Below are positions 620 to 61,590 of a DNA stretch of 64,000 bases, in pieces. Under the pieces are notes generated by a model, which made no database searches, was not told where the DNA came from, and was given only the letters and a program-made list of their open reading frames with translations. The translations under genes and the position numbers were made by a program. Location of the stretch: assembly GCF_055900595.2 (NCBI RefSeq), contig NZ_CM148325.1; one strand, given 5' to 3'. Every line of letters starts with the position of its first letter. Position 1 is the stretch's first letter.

Positions 620-626
620 AAATATG

Positions 627-655
627 CGCTGCGCAGGTTTTTACTGTGCGCAGCG
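627..655. terminator. perfect 9-bp inverted repeat (cgctgcgca / tgcgcagcg) just after pyrE stop; likely pyrE terminator or attenuator-like hairpin
   Basis: Inverted repeat read directly; no strong T-run after it. Confidence 0.45.
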
Positions 656-689
656 TGATGCGGTTTAAGATATCGTGTTAATCTGCTTT

Positions 690-883
690 CGCCAGCAGTG
701 GCAATAGCGTTTCCGGCCTTTTGTGCCGGGAGGGTCGGCGAGTCGCCGACTTAACGCCAGTAGTTTGTCCAGATACCCAAAGTCGCTCCATTGTACTTAA
801 GTACGCTTCGCGTACGTCGCGCTGACGCGCTCAGTACAGTTACGCGCCTTCGGGATAGTTTGAGGGTATTGCCGCTGTTGGTG
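690..883 (+). ncRNA. msr-msd: retron msr-msd locus (template for msDNA), bounded by a1/a2 inverted repeats
   Basis: a1 (cgccagcagtggcaatagc, ~690-708) and a2 (ggtattgccgctgttggtg, ~865-883) can pair over about 18 of 19 positions as RNA including G-U wobbles; several internal palindromes (gtcggcg/cgccgac, gtacgc/gcgtac, gcgc-tgac-gcgc) typical of msd stem-loops; lies immediately 5' of an RT ORF. Confidence 0.7.
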
Positions 884-915
884 CCTCTTTTGGTCGCCGT
901 GATGTGGAGAGTGGA

Positions 916-1875
916 ATGGATGCTACCCGGATAACCCTTCTGGCGCTTGATTTGTTCGGCTCGCCGGGCTGGAGCGCCGATAAAGAAATACAGCGGCTGT
1001 ATGCGCTCAGTAATCATGCCGCACGCCATTACCGACGGATTATTCTTTCTAAGCGTCACGGCGGTCAGCGGGTGGTGTTAGCCCCTGATTACTTGCTCAA
1101 AACCGTACAGCGCAACATTCTTAAGAACGTCCTTTCACAATTCCCTCTTTCCCCTTTTGCTACCGCCTACCGACAGGGTCGCCCAATCGTCAGCAACGCG
1201 CAGCCTCACTGCCAACAGCCGCAGATCCTTAAACTCGATATCGAAAACTTTTTCGATAGCATTAGCTGGTTACAGGTCTGGCGTGTGTTTAGCCAGACCC
1301 AGTTGCCACGCAATGTGGTAACCATGCTGACCTGGCTTTGTTGCTATAACGACGCGTTACCGCAGGGGGCGCCAACTTCGCCTGCCATTTCCAATCTTGT
1401 GATGCGCCGTTTTGATGAGTGCATAGGGGAATGGTGTCAGGCTCGGGGAATTACCTACACCCGCTACTGCGATGACATGACCTTTTCTGGTCACTTCAAT
1501 GCCCGCCAGGTTAAAAATAAAGTATGCGGATTGTTAGCGGAGCTGGGCCTGAGCCTCAATCAACGCAAAAGTTGCCTGATAGCTGCCTGTAAGCGCCAGC
1601 AGGTAACCGGGATTGTTGTTAATCACAAGCCACAGCTTGCCCGTGAAGCGCGCCGGGCGCTGCGTCAGGAAGTACACTTGTGCCAAAAATATGGCGTTAT
1701 TTCGCATCTTAGTCATCGTGGTGAACTTGATCCTTCTGGCGATCTCCACGCACAGGCAACGGCGTATCTTTATGCTTTGCAGGGAAGAATAAACTGGTTA
1801 TTGCAAATCAATCCTGAGGATGAGGCCTTTAAACAGGCGAGGGTGAGTGTAAAGCGAATGCTGGTGGCATGGTAA
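916..1875 (+). CDS. retron-type reverse transcriptase (Ec107-like), 319 aa from ATG at 916
   Basis: Track ORF 904..1875; RT motifs QGAPTSPAISNL and YCDDMTFSG (YxDD box); GGAG Shine-Dalgarno 6 nt before the ATG at 916; position between pyrE and slmA matches the described retron-Ec107 site. Confidence 0.85.
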   Translation: MDATRITLLALDLFGSPGWSADKEIQRLYALSNHAARHYRRIILSKRHGGQRVVLAPDYLLKTVQRNILKNVLSQFPLSPFATAYRQGRPIVSNAQPHCQQPQILKLDIENFFDSISWLQVWRVFSQTQLPRNVVTMLTWLCCYNDALPQGAPTSPAISNLVMRRFDECIGEWCQARGITYTRYCDDMTFSGHFNARQVKNKVCGLLAELGLSLNQRKSCLIAACKRQQVTGIVVNHKPQLAREARRALRQEVHLCQKYGVISHLSHRGELDPSGDLHAQATAYLYALQGRINWLLQINPEDEAFKQARVSVKRMLVAW

Positions 1876-1883
1876 GAAAAGCG

Positions 1884-1905
1884 TCAGGCAGACGTTTCTG
1901 CCTGA
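1884..1905. terminator. hairpin (tcaggcaga-cgtt-tctgcctga) between convergent RT and slmA
   Basis: Perfect 9-bp stem with 4-nt loop read from sequence. Confidence 0.4.
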
Positions 1906-1918
1906 ACGTTTGGGAGAA

Positions 1919-6703: not shown

Positions 6704-8468
<1,765 letters not shown>

Positions 8469-8819
8469 AGTAAATAGCTGACTTATGGATGTGCTGGGGA
8501 TTCTATGTATTTAGCTGTGGCTTTACCATTACTTTTCCCGTTTTTGACTTAAATAGCAATTTACCCACCAATTCTTGCTGAACATCTATACTTTTTTTGT
8601 ATTTTTATGCGATTCATTGATTTCCGCAGTACGTGCAGTAAGGAATCGCGGAGCAACAGTGAAAGAATATTGTTGCTAATGATTTTATTTGATTGATTTC
8701 TTTATTGAAAAACAACGATGTGCTTAAAAATCATTCGGATCGGATTGCCGCGAAAGAAGTGATACACTAGCGCGTCAATATCAGTACGGTATCAGTATTC
8801 AGGTAGCTGTTGAGCCTGG

Positions 8820-8831
8820 GGCGGTAGCGTG
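8820..8831 (+). promoter_or_regulatory. ops element (GGCGGTAGCGTG) in the waaQ leader, expected RfaH recruitment site within a JUMPstart-like region
   Basis: Exact ops 12-mer read about 50 nt upstream of waaQ start. Confidence 0.8.
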
Positions 8832-8880
8832 CTTTTTCTGCTTCACCTTAATCGGATAATCTCAACAAAAAGAGTTACTT

Positions 8881-9939
8881 GTGGATAAGCCATTTCGAAG
8901 AATTTTGCTCATTAAGATGCGTTTTCATGGGGATATGTTATTAACTACTCCTGTCATTAGTTCGCTGAAAAAAAATTACCCTGACGCAAAAATCGATGTG
9001 CTGCTTTATCAGGATACCATCCCGATTCTGTCTGAAAATCCAGAGATTAACGCGCTCTACGGCATAAAAAATAAAAAAGCAAAAGCCTCAGAGAAAATTT
9101 CCAACTTTTTTCATCTCATCAAGGTATTACGTGCCAATAAGTATGACCTTATCGTCAATCTTACCGATCAATGGATGGTTGCTATACTGGTTCGCTTATT
9201 AAATGCCCGTGTGAAAATTTCCCAGGATTATCATCATCGGCAGTCTGCTTTTTGGCGTAAAAGCTTCACCCATCTGGTGCCGTTGCAGGGTGGAAATGTG
9301 GTGGAAAGTAACTTATCCGTGCTGACGCCACTGGGTCTCGAATCGTTGGTGAAGCAGACAACGATGAGTTACCCGCCTGCAAGCTGGAAACGAATGCGTC
9401 GCGAACTGGATCACGCAGGTGTTGGACAAAATTATGTGGTTATCCAACCTACCGCGCGGCAAATCTTCAAATGCTGGGACAACGCCAAGTTTTCCGCTGT
9501 GATTGATGCCTTACATACACGTGGCTATGAAGTCGTTCTGACGTCCGGCCCGGATAAAGACGATCTGGCCTGCGTCAATGAAATTGCGCAGGGATGCCAG
9601 ACGCCACCAGTAACGGCGTTGGCCGGAAAGGTAACCTTCCCGGAACTTGGTGCGTTAATCGATCATGCGCAGCTGTTTATTGGCGTTGATTCCGCACCGG
9701 CGCACATTGCCGCTGCAGTTAATACGCCGCTGATATCGCTGTTTGGTGCAACAGACCATATTTTCTGGCGTCCCTGGTCAAATAACATGATTCAATTCTG
9801 GGCGGGAGATTACCGGGAAATGCCAACACGCGATCAGCGTGACCGAAATGAGATGTATCTTTCGGTTATTCCGGCGGCAGATGTCATTGCTGCTGTTGAT
9901 AAATTATTGCCATCCTCCACGACAGGTACGTCGTTATGA
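8881..9939 (+). CDS. waaQ: LPS heptosyltransferase III (GT9)
   Basis: ...MRFHGDMLLTTPVISSLKKNYPDAKIDVLLYQDTIPIL...; start ambiguous (GTG 8881 or ATG 8917). Confidence 0.85.
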   Translation: MDKPFRRILLIKMRFHGDMLLTTPVISSLKKNYPDAKIDVLLYQDTIPILSENPEINALYGIKNKKAKASEKISNFFHLIKVLRANKYDLIVNLTDQWMVAILVRLLNARVKISQDYHHRQSAFWRKSFTHLVPLQGGNVVESNLSVLTPLGLESLVKQTTMSYPPASWKRMRRELDHAGVGQNYVVIQPTARQIFKCWDNAKFSAVIDALHTRGYEVVLTSGPDKDDLACVNEIAQGCQTPPVTALAGKVTFPELGALIDHAQLFIGVDSAPAHIAAAVNTPLISLFGATDHIFWRPWSNNMIQFWAGDYREMPTRDQRDRNEMYLSVIPAADVIAAVDKLLPSSTTGTSL

Positions 9940-11060
9940 TCGTTGCTTTCTGTTTATATAAATATTTTCCCTTTGGCGGTTTGCAACGCGATTTTATGCG
10001 TATTGCTCAGACAGTTGCGGCCCGAGGGCATCATGTTCGGGTTTATGCCCAGTCATGGGAAGGCGAATGCCCTGATGTGTTTGAACTGATCAACGTGCCG
10101 GTTAAGTCGCATACCAATCACGGGCGTAACGCGGAGTATTTTGCCTGGGTGCAAAAACATTTACGCGAGCATCCGGTCGATAAAGTCGTTGGATTCAACA
10201 AAATGCCGGGGCTGGACGTTTATTATGCCGCTGATGTTTGTTATGCCGAGAAAGTGGCGCAGGAGAAAGGCTTTTTCTATCGCCTGACGTCACGTTATCG
10301 CCATTATGCCGCCTTTGAGCGGGCAACCTTTGAACAGGGCAAGCCGACACAGTTGCTGATGCTGACGGACAAGCAAATCGCCGATTTCCAGAAACATTAT
10401 CAGACTGAAGCGGAGCGTTTTCATATTTTGCCTCCGGGGATTTATCCTGACCGTAAATATAGCCAGCAGCCAGCCAATAGCCGTGAAAGCTTTCGTAAGA
10501 AAAATGGAATAACAGAACAACAATATTTATTGTTGCAGGTCGGTTCAGACTTCACGCGTAAAGGTGTCGATCGTTCCATTGAAGCACTTGCTTCGCTCCC
10601 GGATTCACTGCGCCACAACACATTGCTATATGTTGTTGGGCAGGATAAACCGCGAAAATTTGAGGCACTGGCAGAAAAACGCGGCGTGCGCAGTAATGTT
10701 CACTTCTTCTCTGGGCGTAACGATGTCTCGGAATTAATGGCGGCGGCGGATTTATTACTGCATCCTGCCTACCAGGAAGCGGCGGGAATTGTGCTGCTGG
10801 AAGCGATTACTGCAGGATTACCGGTTCTAACAACTGCTGTTTGTGGTTATGCGCATTATATTGTTGACGCGAATTGCGGCGTGGCTATTGCTGAGCCATT
10901 CCGTCAGGAAACATTGAATGAGTTTTTACGCAAAGCGTTAACGCAATCTTCATTGCGCCAGGCCTGGGCGGAAAATGCGCGACATTATGCTGATACACAA
11001 GATTTATACAGTCTGCCAGAGAAAGCGGCGGATATCATAACGGGTGGTCTGGATGGTTGA
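9936..11060 (+). CDS. waaG: LPS core glucosyltransferase I (GT4)
   Basis: 374 aa, [37 protein letters not shown]... Confidence 0.92.
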
Positions 11061-11850
11061 ACTGAAAGAGCCGTTTGCCACGTTATGGCGCGGTAAAGAT
11101 CCTTTTGAGGAAGTTAAAACCTTGCAGGGTGAGGTATTTCGTGAACTGGAAACTCGCCGCACTCTGCGCTTTGAAATGGCGGGCAAAAGCTATTTTCTCA
11201 AATGGCATCGCGGCACGACCCTGAAAGAGATAATCAAAAATTTACTCTCATTGCGGATGCCAGTATTAGGTGCAGACCGTGAATGGAATGCGATTCATCG
11301 GCTGCGGGATGTCGGCGTTGATACTATGTATGGGGTGGCATTCGGCGAAAAAGGCATTAATCCGCTGACCAGAACTTCGTTTATTATTACCGAAGATCTG
11401 ACGCCAACTATCAGTCTGGAAGATTACTGTGCTGACTGGGCGACTAACCCACCAGATGTCCGCGTAAAGCGTATGCTTATTAAACGTGTCGCGACGATGG
11501 TGCGCGATATGCATGCTGCGGGCATTAACCACCGTGACTGTTATATCTGTCATTTCCTGCTGCACTTGCCTTTTTCTGGTAGGGAAGATGAGTTAAAAAT
11601 TTCAGTAATTGACCTGCACCGGGCGCAGCTTCGCACGCGCGTTCCACGTCGTTGGCGCGATAAAGATCTTATTGGGCTTTATTTTTCTTCGATGAATATT
11701 GGCCTGACTCAGCGTGATATCTGGCGATTTATGAAGGTATATTTTGCCGTACCGCTTAAAGACATACTCAAGCAGGAACAAGGGCTGCTGTCGCAAGCAG
11801 AAGCAAAAGCCACGAAAATCAGGGAAAGAACGATTAGAAAATCGTTGTAA
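11053..11850 (+). CDS. waaP: LPS core heptose(I) kinase
   Basis: Start at [21 protein letters not shown]; 265 aa. Confidence 0.92.
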
Positions 11851-11865
11851 TTTCCGGAGAGAAAT

Positions 11866-12882
11866 ATGAGTGCCCACTATTTTAATCCACAAGAGATGAT
11901 CAATAAGACAATCATCTTCGATGAAAGGCCAGAGGCGTCAGTGGCATCATCATTCCATGTTGCTTATGGCATTGATCAGAACTTTCTTTTTGGTTGTGGT
12001 GTTTCAATCACGTCAGTTTTGTTACATAACAACGACGTGAGTTTTGTCTTCCACGTTTTTATTGATGATATCCCTGACGCCGATATCCAGCGTTTATCCC
12101 AATTGGCGAAAAGCTATCATACCTGTATCCAGATCCATCTGGTAAATTGTGAACGGCTTAAGGTATTACCGACGACCAAAAATTGGTCTATTGCCATGTA
12201 TTTCCGTTTTGTAATTGCAGATTACTTTATTGATCAACAAGATAAGATCCTGTACCTGGATGCTGATATCGCCTGTCAGGGAACCTTAAAACCGCTGATA
12301 ACAATGGATCTTGCCAATAACGTTGCTGCTGTTGTTACTGAACGCGATGCTAACTGGTGGTCGTTACGGGCTCAAAGTCTGCAGTGTAATGAACTTGAAA
12401 AGGGTTACTTTAATTCAGGTGTCCTGTTAATTAATACACTAGCGTGGGCGCAGGAGTCCGTTTCTGCTAAAGCGATGTCGATGCTTGCTGATAAAGCCGT
12501 CGTTTCCCGTTTAACCTATATGGATCAAGATATACTAAATCTTATCCTGTTAGGGAAAGTTAAATTCATTGATGCTAAATACAATACGCAATTTAGTTTA
12601 AATTATGAATTAAAAAAATCATTTATTTGTCCAATTAATGATGAAACCGTATTAATTCATTATGTCGGCCCGACAAAACCTTGGCATTACTGGGCCGGTT
12701 ATCCAAGCGCGCAGCCATTTATCAAAGCCAAAGAAGCATCGCCATGGAAAAATGAACCGTTAATGCGGCCAATTAACTCAAATTATGCTCGTTATTGCGC
12801 TAAGCATAATTTTAAACAAAATAAACCAATTAACGGGATAATGAATTATATTTATTATTTTTATTTAAAGATAATAAAATGA
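11866..12882 (+). CDS. waaO: GT8-family LPS alpha-1,3-glycosyltransferase (outer core, WaaO/WaaI-like)
   Basis: GT8 hallmarks (YGIDQNFLFGCGVSI, YLDADI); first gene after waaP as in R1/R4 core loci. Symbol by synteny. Confidence 0.6.
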   Translation: MSAHYFNPQEMINKTIIFDERPEASVASSFHVAYGIDQNFLFGCGVSITSVLLHNNDVSFVFHVFIDDIPDADIQRLSQLAKSYHTCIQIHLVNCERLKVLPTTKNWSIAMYFRFVIADYFIDQQDKILYLDADIACQGTLKPLITMDLANNVAAVVTERDANWWSLRAQSLQCNELEKGYFNSGVLLINTLAWAQESVSAKAMSMLADKAVVSRLTYMDQDILNLILLGKVKFIDAKYNTQFSLNYELKKSFICPINDETVLIHYVGPTKPWHYWAGYPSAQPFIKAKEASPWKNEPLMRPINSNYARYCAKHNFKQNKPINGIMNYIYYFYLKIIK

Positions 12883-12898
12883 CATTGAGAAAAGTTAA

Positions 12899-13894
12899 AT
12901 GAATGAATTTATAAAAGAACGGTTTTCGTATTTAGCAGATAATAAAAAAGAAAACGTCCCAGAGCTAAATGTTTCCTACGGTATCGATAAGAATTTTTTG
13001 TATGGTGCTGGCGTTTCAATTTCTTCCGTTTTGATTAATAATTCAGATATTAATTTTGTCTTTCATGTTTTCACTGATTATGTGGATGATGATTATTTAA
13101 AGTCATTTGATGAAACAGCAAAACAATTTAATACCTCAATTATTGTATATTTAATTGACCCAAAATACTTTGCTGATCTGCCGACGTCACAGTTTTGGTC
13201 GTACGCGACATACTTCAGGGTATTGTCCTTTGAATATCTGAGTGAAAGTATTTCCACACTGCTGTATCTGGATGCCGATGTCGTTTGTAAAGGAAGTCTG
13301 AAACCTCTCACAAAAATTATATTTAAAGATGAGTTTGCTGCGGTTATTCCTGACAATGATAGTACTCAGGCGGCATGTGCAAAACGTCTTAACATTCCCG
13401 AAATGAATGGACGTTATTTCAATGCAGGCGTTATCTATGTCAATCTTAAAAAATGGCATGAAGCAAATTTGACACCGTATTTACTCACGCTTTTACGAGG
13501 GGAAACTAAATATGGCTCTCTTAAATATTTAGATCAGGATGCGTTGAATATCGCATTTAATATGAATAATATCTACCTCGCGAAGGATTTTGATACTATT
13601 TATACCCTGAAAAACGAACTTCATGATCGTAGTCATCGAAAGTATCAGCAAACCATTACCGATAAAACAGTATTGATTCACTATACAGGGATAACTAAAC
13701 CATGGCATAGCTGGGCTGGATATCCGTCTGCATCATACTTTAATATCGCGCGTGAACAATCTCCCTGGAAGAAATATCCTCTTAAAGAGGCGCGGACTGT
13801 TGCAGAAATGCAGAAACAATATAAGCATCTGTTTGCCCATGGTGAGTATATAAAAGGCATAACTTCATTAATTAAGTACAAGCTTAAGAAATAA
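12899..13894 (+). CDS. waaT: GT8-family LPS alpha-1,2-glycosyltransferase (outer core, WaaT/WaaJ-like)
   Basis: GT8 motifs (YGIDKNFLYGAGVSI, YLDADV); second GT8 before waaY. Symbol by synteny. Confidence 0.55.
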   Translation: MNEFIKERFSYLADNKKENVPELNVSYGIDKNFLYGAGVSISSVLINNSDINFVFHVFTDYVDDDYLKSFDETAKQFNTSIIVYLIDPKYFADLPTSQFWSYATYFRVLSFEYLSESISTLLYLDADVVCKGSLKPLTKIIFKDEFAAVIPDNDSTQAACAKRLNIPEMNGRYFNAGVIYVNLKKWHEANLTPYLLTLLRGETKYGSLKYLDQDALNIAFNMNNIYLAKDFDTIYTLKNELHDRSHRKYQQTITDKTVLIHYTGITKPWHSWAGYPSASYFNIAREQSPWKKYPLKEARTVAEMQKQYKHLFAHGEYIKGITSLIKYKLKK

Positions 13895-13903
13895 ATTACT
13901 CTT

Positions 13904-14596
13904 ATGATTACAAGTATACGTTATCGCGGCTTCTCATTTTATTACAAAGATAATGATAATAAATATAAAGAAATCTTTGATGAAATACTGGCCTATAATT
14001 TTAAAACAGTAAAAGTATTACGTAATATTGATGATACCAAAGTATCGTTGATTGATACGAAATATGGTCGCTATGTTTTTAAAGTCTTTGCTCCGAAAAC
14101 GAAAAGGAATGAACGTTTTTTAAAATCTTTTGTAAAAGGTGACTACTATCAGAATTTGATCGTTGAAACCGATCGTGTCAGAAGTGCAGGTCTTACTTTT
14201 CCTAATGATTTTTATTTTCTGGCTGAGCGTAAAATTTTCAACTATGCCAGTGTTTTTATCATGCTTATCGAGTATGTCGAGGGCGTAGAGCTCAATGATA
14301 TGCCGATTATTCCAGAAAATGTTAAAGCAGAAATTAAGGCTTCAATGGAAAAATTGCATGCCTTAAATATGCTATCGGGCGACCCACACCGGGGTAACTT
14401 TATCGTTAGTAAAGATGGTGTCAGGATAATTGACCTATCCGGTAAAAGCTGTACGGCAGAGCGTAAAGCTCGTGATCGTCTGGCCATGGAACGTCACCTG
14501 GGTATTGCCAACGAAATAAAAGATTATGGCTACTATTCAGTAATCTACAGAACCAAACTACGCAAATTTATTAAAAAATTAAAAGGCAAAGCGTAA
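13904..14596 (+). CDS. waaY: LPS core heptose(II) kinase WaaY
   Basis: 230 aa, MITSIRYRGFSFYYKDNDNKYKEIFDEILAYNFKTVKVLRN...; kinase-like with DPHRGNF motif. Confidence 0.85.
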   Translation: MITSIRYRGFSFYYKDNDNKYKEIFDEILAYNFKTVKVLRNIDDTKVSLIDTKYGRYVFKVFAPKTKRNERFLKSFVKGDYYQNLIVETDRVRSAGLTFPNDFYFLAERKIFNYASVFIMLIEYVEGVELNDMPIIPENVKAEIKASMEKLHALNMLSGDPHRGNFIVSKDGVRIIDLSGKSCTAERKARDRLAMERHLGIANEIKDYGYYSVIYRTKLRKFIKKLKGKA

Positions 14597-14621
14597 ACCA
14601 CACAGTCAAAACGGAACCAAC

Positions 14622-15650
14622 ATGGATTTATTAGCTGAGAGTATTACTGAAGTCGCTGTCTCTGGGGAAATTGCTAACACCGATCGTGTGTTAAATATCG
14701 CTTACGGTATTGACCGTAATTTTTTATTTGGTGCGGCAGTATCTATGCAATCAGTTGTTATGCATAACCCAGACCTTGCGGTTAAGTTTCATCTCTTTAC
14801 CGACTACATTGATGAAGATTATCTACAACGTGTTAACGCTTTTACCAGCAAAAATGCTAACGTTGAAGTAAGAATTTATAAAGTCTCCAGTGTCTTTATT
14901 GATATCTTCCCCAGCCTGAAACAGTGGTCTTATGCAACATTCTTCCGTTTAGTTGCGTTCCAGTATCTGAGTGAAACTATTGAAAATCTGTTATATATCG
15001 ATGCTGATGTCATCTGTAAAGGCTCATTAGCTGGATTGCTTGATATTAATTTTGATGGCGATAAATTCGCAGCTGTTATTAAAGATGTGCCTTTTATGCA
15101 GGAAAAACCAGCGAAGCGTCTGGCTATAGAGGGGCTTCCAGGGAATTATTTCAACGCCGGTGTAGTATATCTGCAGCTTGAAGCGTGGGCGAAAAATGAT
15201 TTTATGAATAAAGCCATTGCTATGCTGGCAAGTGACCCGCAGCACACGAAGTATAAATGCCTTGATCAGGATATTTTAAATATTCTGTTCTTTGGTCATT
15301 GTATTTTTATTAGCGGCGATTATGATTGCTTTTATGGCATTGACTATGAGTTAAAAAATAAAAGCGATGAAGATTATAAAAAGACCATTACCGATGATAC
15401 TAAGCTGATTCATTATGTTGGCGTAACGAAGCCCTGGAACGACTGGACGAATTATCCCTGCCAGAAGTATTTTAATGAGGCTTATCAAGCTTCTTGCTGG
15501 AATGATGTGGCGTTTATTCCAGCCACGAATGAAAAACAGTATCAAGTGAAATCCAGACATTTGAAAAGAAATGGTAATATTGCATCTTCATTTTACTATT
15601 TCATGCTCTATTATAGTAAGAAAATAGCGCGTAAGCATTTTTCCAAATAA
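14622..15650 (+). CDS. waaW: GT8-family LPS alpha-1,2-glycosyltransferase (WaaW-like)
   Basis: Third GT8 paralog (YGIDRNFLFGAAVSM, YIDADV) located after waaY as in R1/R4 loci. Confidence 0.5.
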   Translation: MDLLAESITEVAVSGEIANTDRVLNIAYGIDRNFLFGAAVSMQSVVMHNPDLAVKFHLFTDYIDEDYLQRVNAFTSKNANVEVRIYKVSSVFIDIFPSLKQWSYATFFRLVAFQYLSETIENLLYIDADVICKGSLAGLLDINFDGDKFAAVIKDVPFMQEKPAKRLAIEGLPGNYFNAGVVYLQLEAWAKNDFMNKAIAMLASDPQHTKYKCLDQDILNILFFGHCIFISGDYDCFYGIDYELKNKSDEDYKKTITDDTKLIHYVGVTKPWNDWTNYPCQKYFNEAYQASCWNDVAFIPATNEKQYQVKSRHLKRNGNIASSFYYFMLYYSKKIARKHFSK

Positions 15651-15681
15651 TTATTAAGACTAATCATCCAGGGATTTTTTA

Positions 15682-16455
15682 ATGAACTTGCCCATTTATA
15701 TTGTCTCACTTAAAAGAGATATTGAGCGAAGAAATAAAATAAATGATGTCTTTCATCGATTAAACATTAATTTTGATTTTTTTGATGCCATAGATGCTAA
15801 AGATCCTCAAAATAAAGAAATTATTAATGAAATGAGATTAAGTGGTGTCGGCGCAGAAATGACTGATGGAGAAATTGCTTGTACGTTAAGTCATCAGCTT
15901 ATATATCAGGATATGATAGATAAAAATATAGAATGGGCAGTCATTCTAGAGGACGATGTTATCGTCAATGAGAAATTTAAAAATTTCCTTCAATACTTTA
16001 ATCCTTCTGAAAAAGACAAGTTAAAATATAATAATTTGTATTTGCTTGGAGGTCAGAAAGGATTACATGATTATCCAGTATTGGGGCAAAGCCTTTTTAG
16101 TAAAGTTAAGGTAAGTACTTGTATTTTTCGTCGTGTTAATTTTAATAAAAATAAAATTCGTCGTACATGTTCATATTTGATGAATAACGATATGGCACTA
16201 AAGTTGCTCAAATTGACAAAGGATTATGGCACCTATCGAGCTGATAGCTGGAAGTTAATGCATCAACATAATATTATAAAAGATTTTTATTTAGACGAAA
16301 TAATATTACATCCTATTTTAAATGAGTTTAATAGTCACCTTGAAAGTGAAAGGCTTTTAATATCGGAAAAAAAACAACCCAGGACAAGGCTTCAGAAAAA
16401 AATGAAGTTTATACGTTCCTGGATAAAGGTGGCTTTTTTTTCTCTTTTGAAATGA
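15682..16455 (+). CDS. waaX: GT25-family beta-glycosyltransferase (Lic2A/LgtB-like); position of waaX (R4) or waaV (R1)
   Basis: N-terminus MNLPIYIVSLKRDIERRNKIN... resembles GT25 family; lies immediately before waaL. waaX preferred over waaV on remembered family assignment only. Confidence 0.45.
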   Translation: MNLPIYIVSLKRDIERRNKINDVFHRLNINFDFFDAIDAKDPQNKEIINEMRLSGVGAEMTDGEIACTLSHQLIYQDMIDKNIEWAVILEDDVIVNEKFKNFLQYFNPSEKDKLKYNNLYLLGGQKGLHDYPVLGQSLFSKVKVSTCIFRRVNFNKNKIRRTCSYLMNNDMALKLLKLTKDYGTYRADSWKLMHQHNIIKDFYLDEIILHPILNEFNSHLESERLLISEKKQPRTRLQKKMKFIRSWIKVAFFSLLK

Positions 16456-16489
16456 GATTGTTAATTTCAATTTATTGTGAGATATTAAC

Positions 16490-17743
16490 GTGGAAGTAAA
16501 AATTGAGCAATTTCGAAATAATAGCTGTAATTTTATTTTTTTATTATATTTAATCGGTTTGTTGTTTGTGCCAATTGATCTAAATATTACCACTAAAATA
16601 ATTAATGCTACAGGTGCATTTTCTCTTTTTTTATTAATTGTAAATAACAAGCATAATTATAATAAAAATATCATTATATTAATTCTTGGCTTACTTCTTT
16701 TGGGTGCAATGAACCTGATATGGTATGAGTTTTATAAAACAGAAGATGTAGTATATAGAAATGCTTATCGAGGCTATCTTGAGTCTGGAAAACTATTAGT
16801 ATTTAGCTCGTTGACATTTTTATTACTAAGTAAAAATAAATTCAGGCAAAATGAAAAGCTACATTTTATTTCAGCTATCTTAGTTCAAATAATCATGCTA
16901 TGTAGAGCATATTATCAAGGGATATATTTGCATGCAGACCGCATTCCCCTCTCCGCCATGAATGGGAATATTGGTCAGATGGGGGCAGCGACTATTGCGG
17001 CTTATGTGATTACATTCACTACTTTATATTCTTCAATTGTATTCATCAAAATGCAATCGAAATATAAATGGTTTCTATTTTATGCTAACTTTGCTTTAAG
17101 CTTTGCAGCAGTAATGATGACAGGAACGCGTGCGGCAATTTTCACATTCCCACTTATGATTATGGTCATATTATTTCTTCAGCATCGTGATCAAAAAGTG
17201 TTTTTATTTAAAGGATTGAGTGGTGTTTTTATATTGCTACTTGCTTGTGGTTTGATATTTAATAAGGAAATTGAGAGGCGAATTAATTCATTAAAAGCTG
17301 ATGTTATTTCATATGCTACAAAAAATAACAGTCAATCCTCGGTCGGAGCACGTTTTGCAATGGTTAATGCAGGAATTAAAGGAAGTCCTGATGGTTTTAA
17401 TTGGCAATCTCTTGAGCAGCGTGCTGAAAAGATAAAAGCATTAAGTGCAGAAAATAATATTTATAGTGGAGCTTTATTATTCCTTGATGTACATATGCAT
17501 AATGAAATTGTTGAAGCTCTTTCCACGAAAGGGAAAATTGGTCTTCTTGTTCTTATTATGTTCTATGTTGCAATGATCTACTACTGTATCCGGGAGAAAA
17601 AATATATACTTTTGGTTTTCCCTGCTTCTATTATGTTATTTGGCATTAGTGATGTCATTACGCATGCTAAACCAATACCGGCATCGTGGATTGTGTGCCT
17701 CTTCCTGTCTATATCGTTTTTGAGTAAAAAAGAACCACAATAA
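16490..17743 (+). CDS. waaL: O-antigen ligase WaaL
   Basis: 417-aa polytopic membrane protein, AT-rich, last gene of the waaQ operon; GTG start. Confidence 0.8.
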   Translation: MEVKIEQFRNNSCNFIFLLYLIGLLFVPIDLNITTKIINATGAFSLFLLIVNNKHNYNKNIIILILGLLLLGAMNLIWYEFYKTEDVVYRNAYRGYLESGKLLVFSSLTFLLLSKNKFRQNEKLHFISAILVQIIMLCRAYYQGIYLHADRIPLSAMNGNIGQMGAATIAAYVITFTTLYSSIVFIKMQSKYKWFLFYANFALSFAAVMMTGTRAAIFTFPLMIMVILFLQHRDQKVFLFKGLSGVFILLLACGLIFNKEIERRINSLKADVISYATKNNSQSSVGARFAMVNAGIKGSPDGFNWQSLEQRAEKIKALSAENNIYSGALLFLDVHMHNEIVEALSTKGKIGLLVLIMFYVAMIYYCIREKKYILLVFPASIMLFGISDVITHAKPIPASWIVCLFLSISFLSKKEPQ

Positions 17744-17758
17744 TAAAAACGTTGATTA

Positions 17759-17785
17759 AGTAAGTGGGTATAATGCCCACTTACT
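17759..17785. terminator. bidirectional terminator hairpin between convergent waaL and waaC
   Basis: Perfect 10-bp stem agtaagtggg / cccacttact with 7-nt loop, A/T-rich flanks. Confidence 0.6.
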
Positions 17786-61504: not shown

Positions 61505-61590
61505 CAGGCTTGATAAGACGCGTTAAGCGTCGCATCAGGCAATGTGCACCCTACGTTGGATGCGGCGCGAGCGCCTTATCCAACCTACGG
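61505..61590. repeat. REP/BIME element overlapping the stop codon of the downstream GH127 gene
   Basis: aggcttgataagacgcgttaagcgtcgcatcaggca and ggatgcggcgcgagcgccttatccaacctacgg. Confidence 0.65.

What the first reader, a model, noticed from the sequence alone, without database searches (positions are those of the whole stretch)
8469..8880. ops/JUMPstart element in the waaQ leader
The exact 12-mer GGCGGTAGCGTG lies about 50 nt upstream of waaQ inside a 412-bp divergent waaA/waaQ control region. This is the RfaH-dependent anti-termination signal expected for long LPS operons, and it shows the regulatory architecture is intact even though the outer-core genes differ from K-12.
Basis: partly seen in the sequence, partly recalled or inferred. 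Interest (0 to 1): 0.3.

Follow-up and report, generated by a model that had tools for sequence, protein, structure and literature searches.

The report
RfaH loading signal before waaQ
This is the well-known JUMPstart/ops signal in the leader of the E. coli LPS-core (waaQ) operon, where the anti-termination factor RfaH boards RNA polymerase; it is real, intact and almost invariant across E. coli, and it is ordinary.

Summary
GGCGGTAGCGTG lies at 8820-8831 (+). It is the only exact copy in the window, in the 412-bp waaA/waaQ spacer, and it ends 49 nt before the waaQ GTG (8881).

It is the 3' end of a full JUMPstart element (8793-8831): Rfam RF01707 scores 55.2 bits against a cut-off of 35.

A conserved extended -10 (TGaTACACT, 8760-8768) puts the transcription start at 8775. 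That is exactly where the 5' end of the K-12 sRNA RirA (annotated in MG1655) maps. ops therefore sits at +46 to +57 of a roughly 106-nt leader.

The 50-nt core is 100% identical in 4900 of 5426 complete E. coli genomes, although the rest of the spacer is only about 79% identical to K-12. From the promoter to the waaQ start the leader differs at one position from strain CFT073, where published ChIP-seq shows RfaH on this operon.

The operon it serves has nine genes, ends at 17743 and is AT-rich in its distal part. In-silico PCR types it as R4 core, so it does differ from K-12.

One addition is unproven. In waaQ leaders of about ten genera, ops forms the 3' arm of a long RNA hairpin followed by a U-run. 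This looks like a terminator and matches RirA.

Verdict: already known, low interest.

The parts
7191..8468 (-). waaA (Kdo transferase), the divergent neighbour
   Evidence: ORF; RefSeq annotation of a near-identical strain
8469..8880 (.). 412-bp waaA/waaQ intergenic control region. It is a mosaic: some blocks are 100% conserved and others cannot be aligned with the K-12 allele.
8760..8768 (+). Predicted extended -10 promoter TGaTACACT (TG 8760-8761, hexamer 8763-8768)
   Evidence: TGnTACA(C/A)T is conserved, with n free, in waaQ leaders of about ten genera. The annotated 5' end of K-12 rirA lies exactly 7 nt after the hexamer.
8775..8846 (+). Equivalent of the K-12 sRNA RirA (73 nt in MG1655, 72 nt here because the T-run has one T fewer). 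Its 5' end is the waaQ transcription start.
   Evidence: The MG1655 ncRNA rirA b4760 coordinates were read from the sequence and mapped through alignments A1 and A2.
8793..8831 (+). JUMPstart element (39 nt)
   Evidence: Rfam RF01707: 55.2 bits, cut-off 35, E 6.4e-10, model positions 1-38 of 38
8800..8818 (+). JUMPstart hairpin: stem CAGGU (8800-8804) pairs with GCCUG (8814-8818); 9-nt loop
   Evidence: Rfam structure line. Covariation in 89 distinct elements: 97.1% of cells paired, 34 double-change cells against 11.1 +/- 2.6 in shuffles.
8820..8831 (+). ops, GGCGGTAGCGTG. RNA polymerase pauses at U11 (8830). Bases 3-8 (8822-8827) are the RfaH contact bases.
   Evidence: roles of the bases from PMC5995543
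8782..8837 (+). Predicted long RNA hairpin (8782-8834) with ops as its 3' arm, followed by the U-run 8833-8837. It resembles a terminator. Its function is inferred only.
   Evidence: RNAalifold consensus of 14 waaQ leaders; pair counts; dG -20.3 kcal/mol, z -1.43
8870..8874 (+). Weak Shine-Dalgarno-like AAGAG, 6 nt before the GTG
   Evidence: Read from the sequence; conserved in four E. coli alleles
8881..17743 (+). The operon served by the element: waaQ-G-P-O-T-Y-W-X-L (R4 core type), nine same-strand genes. GC content is 0.29-0.39 from about 12.5 kb onward.
   Evidence: Annotation, composition, in-silico R4 PCR product 15491-15870
17759..17785 (+). 12-bp hairpin between the convergent waaL and waaC genes; the likely end of the operon

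Best explanation
This is the canonical JUMPstart/ops leader of the waaQ LPS-core operon. Transcription starts at about 8775 from an extended -10 promoter. RNA polymerase transcribes the JUMPstart and pauses at ops U11 (8830). There the non-template strand GGCGGTAG folds into a small hairpin, which RfaH recognises. RfaH then opens, binds the polymerase in place of NusG, suppresses pausing and Rho/H-NS-dependent termination, and recruits a ribosome to the poor start site (GTG with a weak SD). This allows the whole roughly 8.9-kb operon to be expressed, including its AT-rich distal genes. The first roughly 72 nt of the same transcript correspond to the sRNA RirA, which has been reported to bind RfaH and damp its activity. 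What is shown here: the sequence, its position and strand, family membership, its conservation, and the mapping of the K-12 RirA ends. What is taken from the literature: RfaH binding and its effect, shown for nearly identical leaders in K-12 and CFT073. What is inferred: that the same holds in this strain.
For: There is one exact 12-mer on the coding strand of the waaQ leader, and no other ops core in the operon. Rfam JUMPstart scores 55.2 bits against a cut-off of 35. All ops bases reported as needed for RfaH recruitment (C3 to G8) and for pausing (T11, G12) are present (with PMC5995543). The leader from 8760 to 8892 differs at one position from CFT073 and has the same JUMPstart as K-12. PMC9765446 reports RfaH ChIP-seq signal on rfa, loss of downstream polymerase in delta-rfaH, and an ops-to-start distance of 40-67 nt. 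The 50-nt core is present in 5422 of 5426 complete E. coli genomes and is 100% identical in 4900, whereas the whole spacer is only 60-80% identical in 937 genomes. The same arrangement of promoter, JUMPstart, ops, a 39-66 nt gap and then waaQ was found in 18 loci from Escherichia, Citrobacter, Kluyvera, Kosakonia, Cedecea, Pluralibacter, Pseudescherichia, Shimwellia, Silvania, Pectobacterium and an isolate labelled Enterobacter sp.. The distal operon has 0.29-0.39 GC, as expected of RfaH and H-NS targets. The MG1655 rirA annotation maps to 8775-8846.
Against: Nothing contradicts this explanation, but there are gaps. There are no expression or binding data for this strain. rfaH itself is not in the window. 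The transcription start is mapped by homology to K-12, not measured. The leader does have a weak SD (AAGAG, 6 nt upstream), so the published phrase 'lacks a ribosome-binding site' is only approximately true here.
Confidence: 0.93

Rival explanations
1. The leader is also an RfaH-sensed attenuator. The RNA from 8782 to 8834, which includes JUMPstart and ops, folds into a long hairpin followed by a U-run. Polymerases that did not acquire RfaH would terminate there and release RirA. RfaH-modified polymerases would read through into waaQ. This would add to the ops mechanism, not replace it.
For: The RNAalifold consensus of 14 waaQ leaders from about ten genera pairs 8782-8788 with 8828-8834 and 8790-8796 with 8821-8826. 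97% of cells are paired, and changes in the 5' arm keep the pairing (U/C opposite G, G/A opposite U). A T-run of at least 4 follows ops in 10 of 18 waaQ leaders against 10 of 80 other JUMPstart loci (Fisher p = 2e-4, lineages not independent). The annotated 3' end of RirA maps 12 nt after the base of the hairpin, inside the U-rich stretch UUUUUCUGCUU. Folding energy is -22.5 kcal/mol with z -2.2 for K-12 RirA.
Against: Folding energy for the window allele is unremarkable (z -1.43; 24 of 200 shuffles fold as well). The 3' arm is the invariant ops, so true two-sided covariation is nearly impossible, and the structure was derived from the same sequences. The simple terminator scan did not flag the site. 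Eight of 18 waaQ leaders lack the T-run. [quoted passage not shown] The primary RirA paper could not be read, so this may already be described or excluded.
Confidence: 0.3
2. The element acts mainly as RNA, through the JUMPstart hairpin or RirA, and not through the non-template DNA strand.
For: The JUMPstart stem covaries, including G-U pairs. RirA is reported to bind RfaH only if it contains ops (PMC6358824).
Against: Published structures and mutagenesis place RfaH on the non-template DNA hairpin of ops-paused polymerase (PMC5995543; PMC11001881). The isolated 39-nt RNA does not fold better than shuffles (z +0.32).
Confidence: 0.05
3. The 12-mer matches by chance and has no function.
For: The 8-nt core does occur six more times in the window, inside coding sequence.
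Against: The Rfam E-value is 6.4e-10 for the full 39-nt element. The element is near-invariant in 5422 genomes inside an otherwise polymorphic spacer. It sits at the same position before waaQ in many genera.
Confidence: 0.01

Closest known systems
ops / JUMPstart of the E. coli K-12 and CFT073 waaQ (rfaQ) operon
   Same: The 39-nt JUMPstart including the ops 12-mer is identical. The extended -10, the transcription-start position, the following T-run, the weak SD and the GTG start are also the same. Compared with CFT073 there is one substitution between the promoter and the start codon.
   Different: Upstream parts of the spacer (about 8557-8590 and 8621-8710) cannot be aligned with K-12. WaaQ is only about 73% identical to the WaaQ of two E. 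coli loci (L059, L103) that carry the K-12-type leader. The downstream outer-core genes are R4 type, not K-12 or R1. The T-run has 5 T where K-12 has 6.
Rfam RF01707 JUMPstart elements of O-antigen, capsule, colanic-acid and other polysaccharide clusters
   Same: Same two-part element: a GGTAGC hairpin half and the ops half, with the same 5-bp stem.
   Different: waaQ leaders carry the minority A-U version of stem pair 2 (10 of 89 elements, against U-A in 64). They begin CAGTAtt rather than CAGTGca, and they have a 12-nt spacing. More often than other loci, they have a 5' flank complementary to ops and a following T-run.
RirA sRNA (MG1655 b4760)
   Same: The K-12 coordinates map to 8775-8846. 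Within that span the JUMPstart and ops are identical.
   Different: There are a few substitutions near the two ends of the span and one T fewer in the T-run. Whether the RNA accumulates in this strain is unknown.

Membership tests
ops (RfaH recruitment site) | 12-nt consensus GGCGGTAGnnTG, with C3 to G8 for RfaH contacts and T11-G12 for the pause | tested here: met
   Exact GGCGGTAGCGTG at 8820-8831. The roles of the bases come from PMC5995543.
ops (RfaH recruitment site) | Lies on the non-template (coding-sense) strand of a transcribed 5' leader, downstream of the promoter and upstream of the first gene | tested here: met
   It is on the + strand, the same strand as waaQ. It lies 46-57 nt after the start at 8775 (mapped from K-12 rirA) and 49 nt before the GTG at 8881. 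The transcription start in this strain was not measured.
ops (RfaH recruitment site) | A single ops per transcription unit, serving a long operon that is AT-rich and H-NS-prone | tested here: met
   There is no other GGCGGTAG between 8832 and 17743. The operon has nine genes over 8.9 kb, and its distal part has 0.29-0.39 GC. H-NS binding was not tested here.
ops (RfaH recruitment site) | RfaH binds there, and distal gene expression depends on rfaH | not testable with these tools
   This has been shown by ChIP-seq and in a delta-rfaH mutant of CFT073 (PMC9765446). The CFT073 leader differs at one position from the window between 8760 and 8892.
JUMPstart (Rfam RF01707) | Score at or above the family's gathering cut-off over the full model | tested here: met
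   55.2 bits against 35; model positions 1-38 of 38; E 6.4e-10
JUMPstart (Rfam RF01707) | A 5-bp stem-loop in the upstream half, supported by covariation | tested here: met
   The stem pairs 8800-8804 with 8814-8818. In 89 distinct elements, 97.1% of cells are paired, with 34 double-change cells against 11.1 +/- 2.6 (0 of 500 shuffles). Caveat: the search pattern fixed GGT on the 5' side of the stem.
JUMPstart (Rfam RF01707) | Located upstream of a polysaccharide or LPS gene cluster | tested here: met
   It lies upstream of waaQGPOTYWXL.
RirA sRNA | [quoted passage not shown] | tested here: inconclusive
   The sequence equivalent is present at 8775-8846. The existence of the RNA in this strain cannot be tested with these tools.
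Intrinsic terminator / attenuator | A stable hairpin followed directly by a U-tract, with termination observed | tested here: inconclusive
   A conserved hairpin plus U-run is predicted, but its energy is not exceptional. It was not flagged by the consensus scan. No 3'-end data are available.

The most novel reading that the evidence does not exclude
In waaQ-type leaders ops is built into the 3' arm of a conserved terminator-like RNA hairpin. RfaH loading at the ops pause would then decide between two outcomes: a terminated roughly 72-nt RirA, which itself titrates RfaH, or read-through into the LPS-core operon. That would make a self-limiting attenuator loop conserved across about ten enterobacterial genera. 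It may already be described in the primary RirA paper (Klein et al. 2016), which I could not read.
Probability: 0.25. Interest if true: 0.35.

Novelty: already known. Interest (0 to 1): 0.1.

Why it matters
The result confirms that this strain's LPS-core operon carries the standard RfaH control region, even though the strain has a different outer core (R4). It also illustrates that the JUMPstart/ops core is an island of near-invariance inside a spacer where core-type alleles recombine. It adds nothing new to RfaH biology. The only lead worth a specialist's time is the conserved hairpin and U-run that overlap ops and match the ends of RirA.

Tried and rejected
1. Other ops sites. The six further GGCGGTAG cores are at 1160-, 3746-, 34602-, 34714+, 40743+ and 45007+. 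They lie inside coding sequences or candidate ORFs (sense strand in coaBC and lldP), and they lack both the JUMPstart half and the GCGTG tail. Published ChIP-seq found no RfaH at ops-like sites inside coding regions. I rejected them as functional sites. The excess (7 against 1.4 expected) remains only loosely explained, probably by codon composition.

2. The sigma-70 consensus scan found only a weak TTGAAA-18-AATCAT match at 8705-8734, whose -35 is not conserved in K-12. It missed the real extended -10, which was found by cross-genus comparison instead.

3. The whole 106-nt leader does not fold better than shuffles (z -0.23). Nor does the 39-nt element alone (z +0.32).

4. A permissive Rfam scan of the spacer found nothing else credible. 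The only other match was a chance snoRNA hit at E 0.2.

5. The primary RirA paper could not be retrieved by DOI or by PMC id.

6. A literature search for retron Ec107 at pyrE returned only irrelevant papers.

7. Twenty-two of the 120 hits in the genome contigs pattern scan, 21 removed by a sequence filter and one (Mycobacterium, L044) by hand, came mostly from GC-rich or non-enterobacterial genomes and lacked the GCC stem half or looked like chance matches. They were set aside.

Full report
**Observation**

The 12-mer GGCGGTAGCGTG is at window 8820-8831 on the + strand. It is the only exact copy on either strand of the 64-kb window.

- waaA occupies 7191-8468 (-) and waaQ occupies 8881-9939 (+), so the spacer is 8469-8880, which is 412 bp.
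- RefSeq annotation of a nearly identical genome gives the same gene calls. That genome is E. coli Z0117EC0005, with 6 mismatches to the window over 24.9 kb.
- The 12-mer ends 49 nt before the GTG at 8881.
- The MG1655 record starts waaQ 12 codons later, at an ATG. That start would cut off the first beta-strand shared with the paralogues WaaC and WaaF.
- The NCBIfam RfaQ model aligns from residue 1 of the GTG-started protein.
- I therefore take 8881 as the start, and "about 50 nt upstream" is right.

**What it is**

An Rfam scan of the whole window places a full-length JUMPstart element (RF01707) at 8793-8831 (+). It scores 55.2 bits against a gathering score of 35, with E 6.4e-10. The 12-mer is the 3' end of this element.

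The 5' half contains a 5-bp stem, 8800-8804 paired with 8814-8818.

To test that stem independently, I scanned one genome per species (genome contigs) for GGTAGC-N9-14-GGCGGTAGCGTG.

About 98 are genuine elements, nearly all from Enterobacterales, with a few from Shewanella and Aeromonas.
- In 89 distinct elements, the two stem pairs left free by the search pattern covary. One pair is C-G, U-A or U-G. The other is U-A, A-U, G-U or G-C.
- 97.1% of cells are paired. There are 34 cells with changes on both sides, against 11.1 +/- 2.6 in shuffles (0 of 500 shuffles reach the observed value). Slid-partner controls give 22-59% paired.
- The window carries the minority A-U version of the second pair, which is typical of waaQ leaders.

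**Promoter, transcription start and RirA**

Eighteen of the fetched loci have a waaQ homologue 39-66 nt downstream of ops.

- In those with the divergent waaA/waaQ arrangement, a motif TGnTACA(C/A)T lies about 25 nt upstream of JUMPstart. The position n varies (A, G, C or T). This is the signature of an extended -10 promoter.
- In the window this motif is 8760-8768, which predicts a start at 8775.
- The MG1655 record annotates the 73-nt sRNA rirA (b4760) at 3808166-3808238. Read from the sequence, its 5' end is exactly 7 nt after the TACACT hexamer.
- Through the alignments, this maps to window 8775, and its 3' end maps to 8846.
- ops is therefore at +46 to +57 of a roughly 106-nt leader.
- Reviews by the discoverers state three things. 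[quoted passage not shown] It contains JUMPstart and ops. When over-produced, it binds RfaH and mimics an rfaH deletion (PMC5736990, PMC6358824, PMC8745692).

**Conservation**

- The whole spacer is found in 5424 of 5426 complete E. coli genomes. It comes in at least two allele classes: 4443 genomes are at 95-99% identity and 937 are at 60-80%. K-12 is at 79%.
- Alignment shows a mosaic. Some blocks are identical in all alleles. These are the part next to waaA, 8592-8620, and about 8711-8837. Other blocks cannot be aligned.
- The 50-nt core 8789-8838 is present in 5422 genomes and is 100% identical in 4900 of them.
- The JUMPstart/ops core, with its promoter, is therefore an island of strong constraint in a spacer where core-type alleles meet.

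**Link to experiments**

- CFT073 has the same leader, with one substitution between 8760 and 8892.
- In CFT073, ChIP-seq found RfaH on the rfa operon downstream of a single leader ops, and polymerase occupancy was lost toward the operon end in delta-rfaH.
- In the same study, none of the ops-like sites inside coding regions carried RfaH signal. The ops-to-start distances for wzx, kps and rfa were 40-67 nt (PMC9765446).
- Mutagenesis and structures show that ops bases 3-8 contact RfaH in a small non-template-strand hairpin, and that T11/G12 cause the pause (PMC5995543; PMC11001881). All of these bases are present here.

**The operon served**

- Nine same-strand genes run from 8881 to 17743. 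They are followed by a 12-bp hairpin at 17759-17785, between the convergent waaL and waaC genes.
- GC content falls from about 0.5 to 0.29-0.39 over 12.5-17.5 kb. This fits the published picture of RfaH counter-silencing AT-rich, H-NS-bound operons.
- Published typing primers give the 380-bp product diagnostic of R4 (15491-15870). No R1, R2, R3 or K-12 product is obtained (PMC13293308).
- Where CFT073 (R1) has a GT2 gene (waaV), the window has a GT25 gene (waaX).

**Other ops cores**

GGCGGTAG occurs seven times, against 1.4 expected. The six extra copies lie within the coding sequences or candidate ORFs shown. They lack the JUMPstart half and the GCGTG tail. By the CFT073 result they are not expected to load RfaH.

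**An addition that is not established**

- RNAalifold on 14 waaQ leaders predicts a long hairpin (8782-8834). The segment just 5' of JUMPstart, together with its first bases, pairs with ops. The JUMPstart stem forms the tip.
- 97% of cells are paired. Changes in the 5' arm preserve pairing with the invariant ops.
- A T-run follows ops in 10 of 18 waaQ leaders, against 10 of 80 other JUMPstart loci.
- This resembles an intrinsic terminator, and the 3' end of RirA maps 12 nt past the base of the hairpin.
- There are reasons for caution. The energy is unexceptional for the window allele (z -1.43; K-12 z -2.16). The lineages are related. One paper calls RirA a processing product. I hold this at about 0.25-0.3.

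**Verdict**

Both the observation and the interpretation are correct. The element is a textbook one. It is already annotated as an Rfam family and, in K-12, as rirA.

Noticed in passing
window 620-1918 (RT gene 916-1875, +): A roughly 1.3-kb insert lies between pyrE and slmA (ttk). It carries a 319-aa retron reverse transcriptase: PADLOC RT_Ec107-like, E 6.9e-133, and NCBIfam retron St85 family, just under the cut-off. It replaces the 36-nt palindromic spacer seen in CFT073. An inverted repeat at 692-706 / 867-881 lies upstream of the RT, where msr/msd would be. No annotated gene and no ORF listing candidate larger than about 100 aa accompanies the RT inside the insert. From memory, retron-Ec107 was described at exactly this site.
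   Followed up: partly
window 8557-8590 and 8621-8710: These blocks of the waaA/waaQ spacer cannot be aligned between the allele of the window and CFT073 and the K-12-type allele, while the flanking blocks are identical. The window allele has a 10-bp-stem inverted repeat at 8652-8677 that K-12 lacks. The likely cause is recombination junctions between core types.
   Followed up: partly
window 1160, 3746, 34602, 34714, 40743, 45007: The 8-nt ops core GGCGGTAG occurs 7 times in the window against 1.4 expected (0 of 100 shuffles reach 7). Apart from the waaQ copy, all lie within coding sequences or candidate ORFs. Two are 112 bp apart on opposite strands in lldP. The cause is probably codon composition, but this was not tested.
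   Followed up: partly
L006 (E. coli strain E2, NZ_CP104509.1), locus 1196-2404: An IS4-like ISVsa5 transposase is inserted in the waaA/waaQ spacer about 250 bp upstream of rfaQ. Only the last roughly 150 bp of the spacer before rfaQ matched the window, at 88% identity, and that stretch spans the position of the promoter and JUMPstart.
   Followed up: no
window 61507-61585 (-): Rfam naRNA4 (nucleoid-associated REP-derived RNA) match: 67.8 bits against a cut-off of 59.5.
   Followed up: no
window 14702-14719 (+): A terminator-like hairpin followed by TTTTTT lies inside the waaW-like GT8 gene, within the RfaH-dependent operon. Such sites are no more frequent here than in shuffles.
   Followed up: no
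window from about 37700 onward: The window diverges from its otherwise near-identical relative Z0117EC0005 at about the place where that genome carries a 4.6-kb YadA-like adhesin gene. In that relative, a HicAB toxin-antitoxin pair lies further along.
   Followed up: no
window 8881 versus 8917: The annotated waaQ start differs between records: GTG giving 352 or 356 aa in PGAP records, and ATG giving 344 aa in MG1655. Alignment with the paralogues and the NCBIfam profile favour the GTG.
   Followed up: yes
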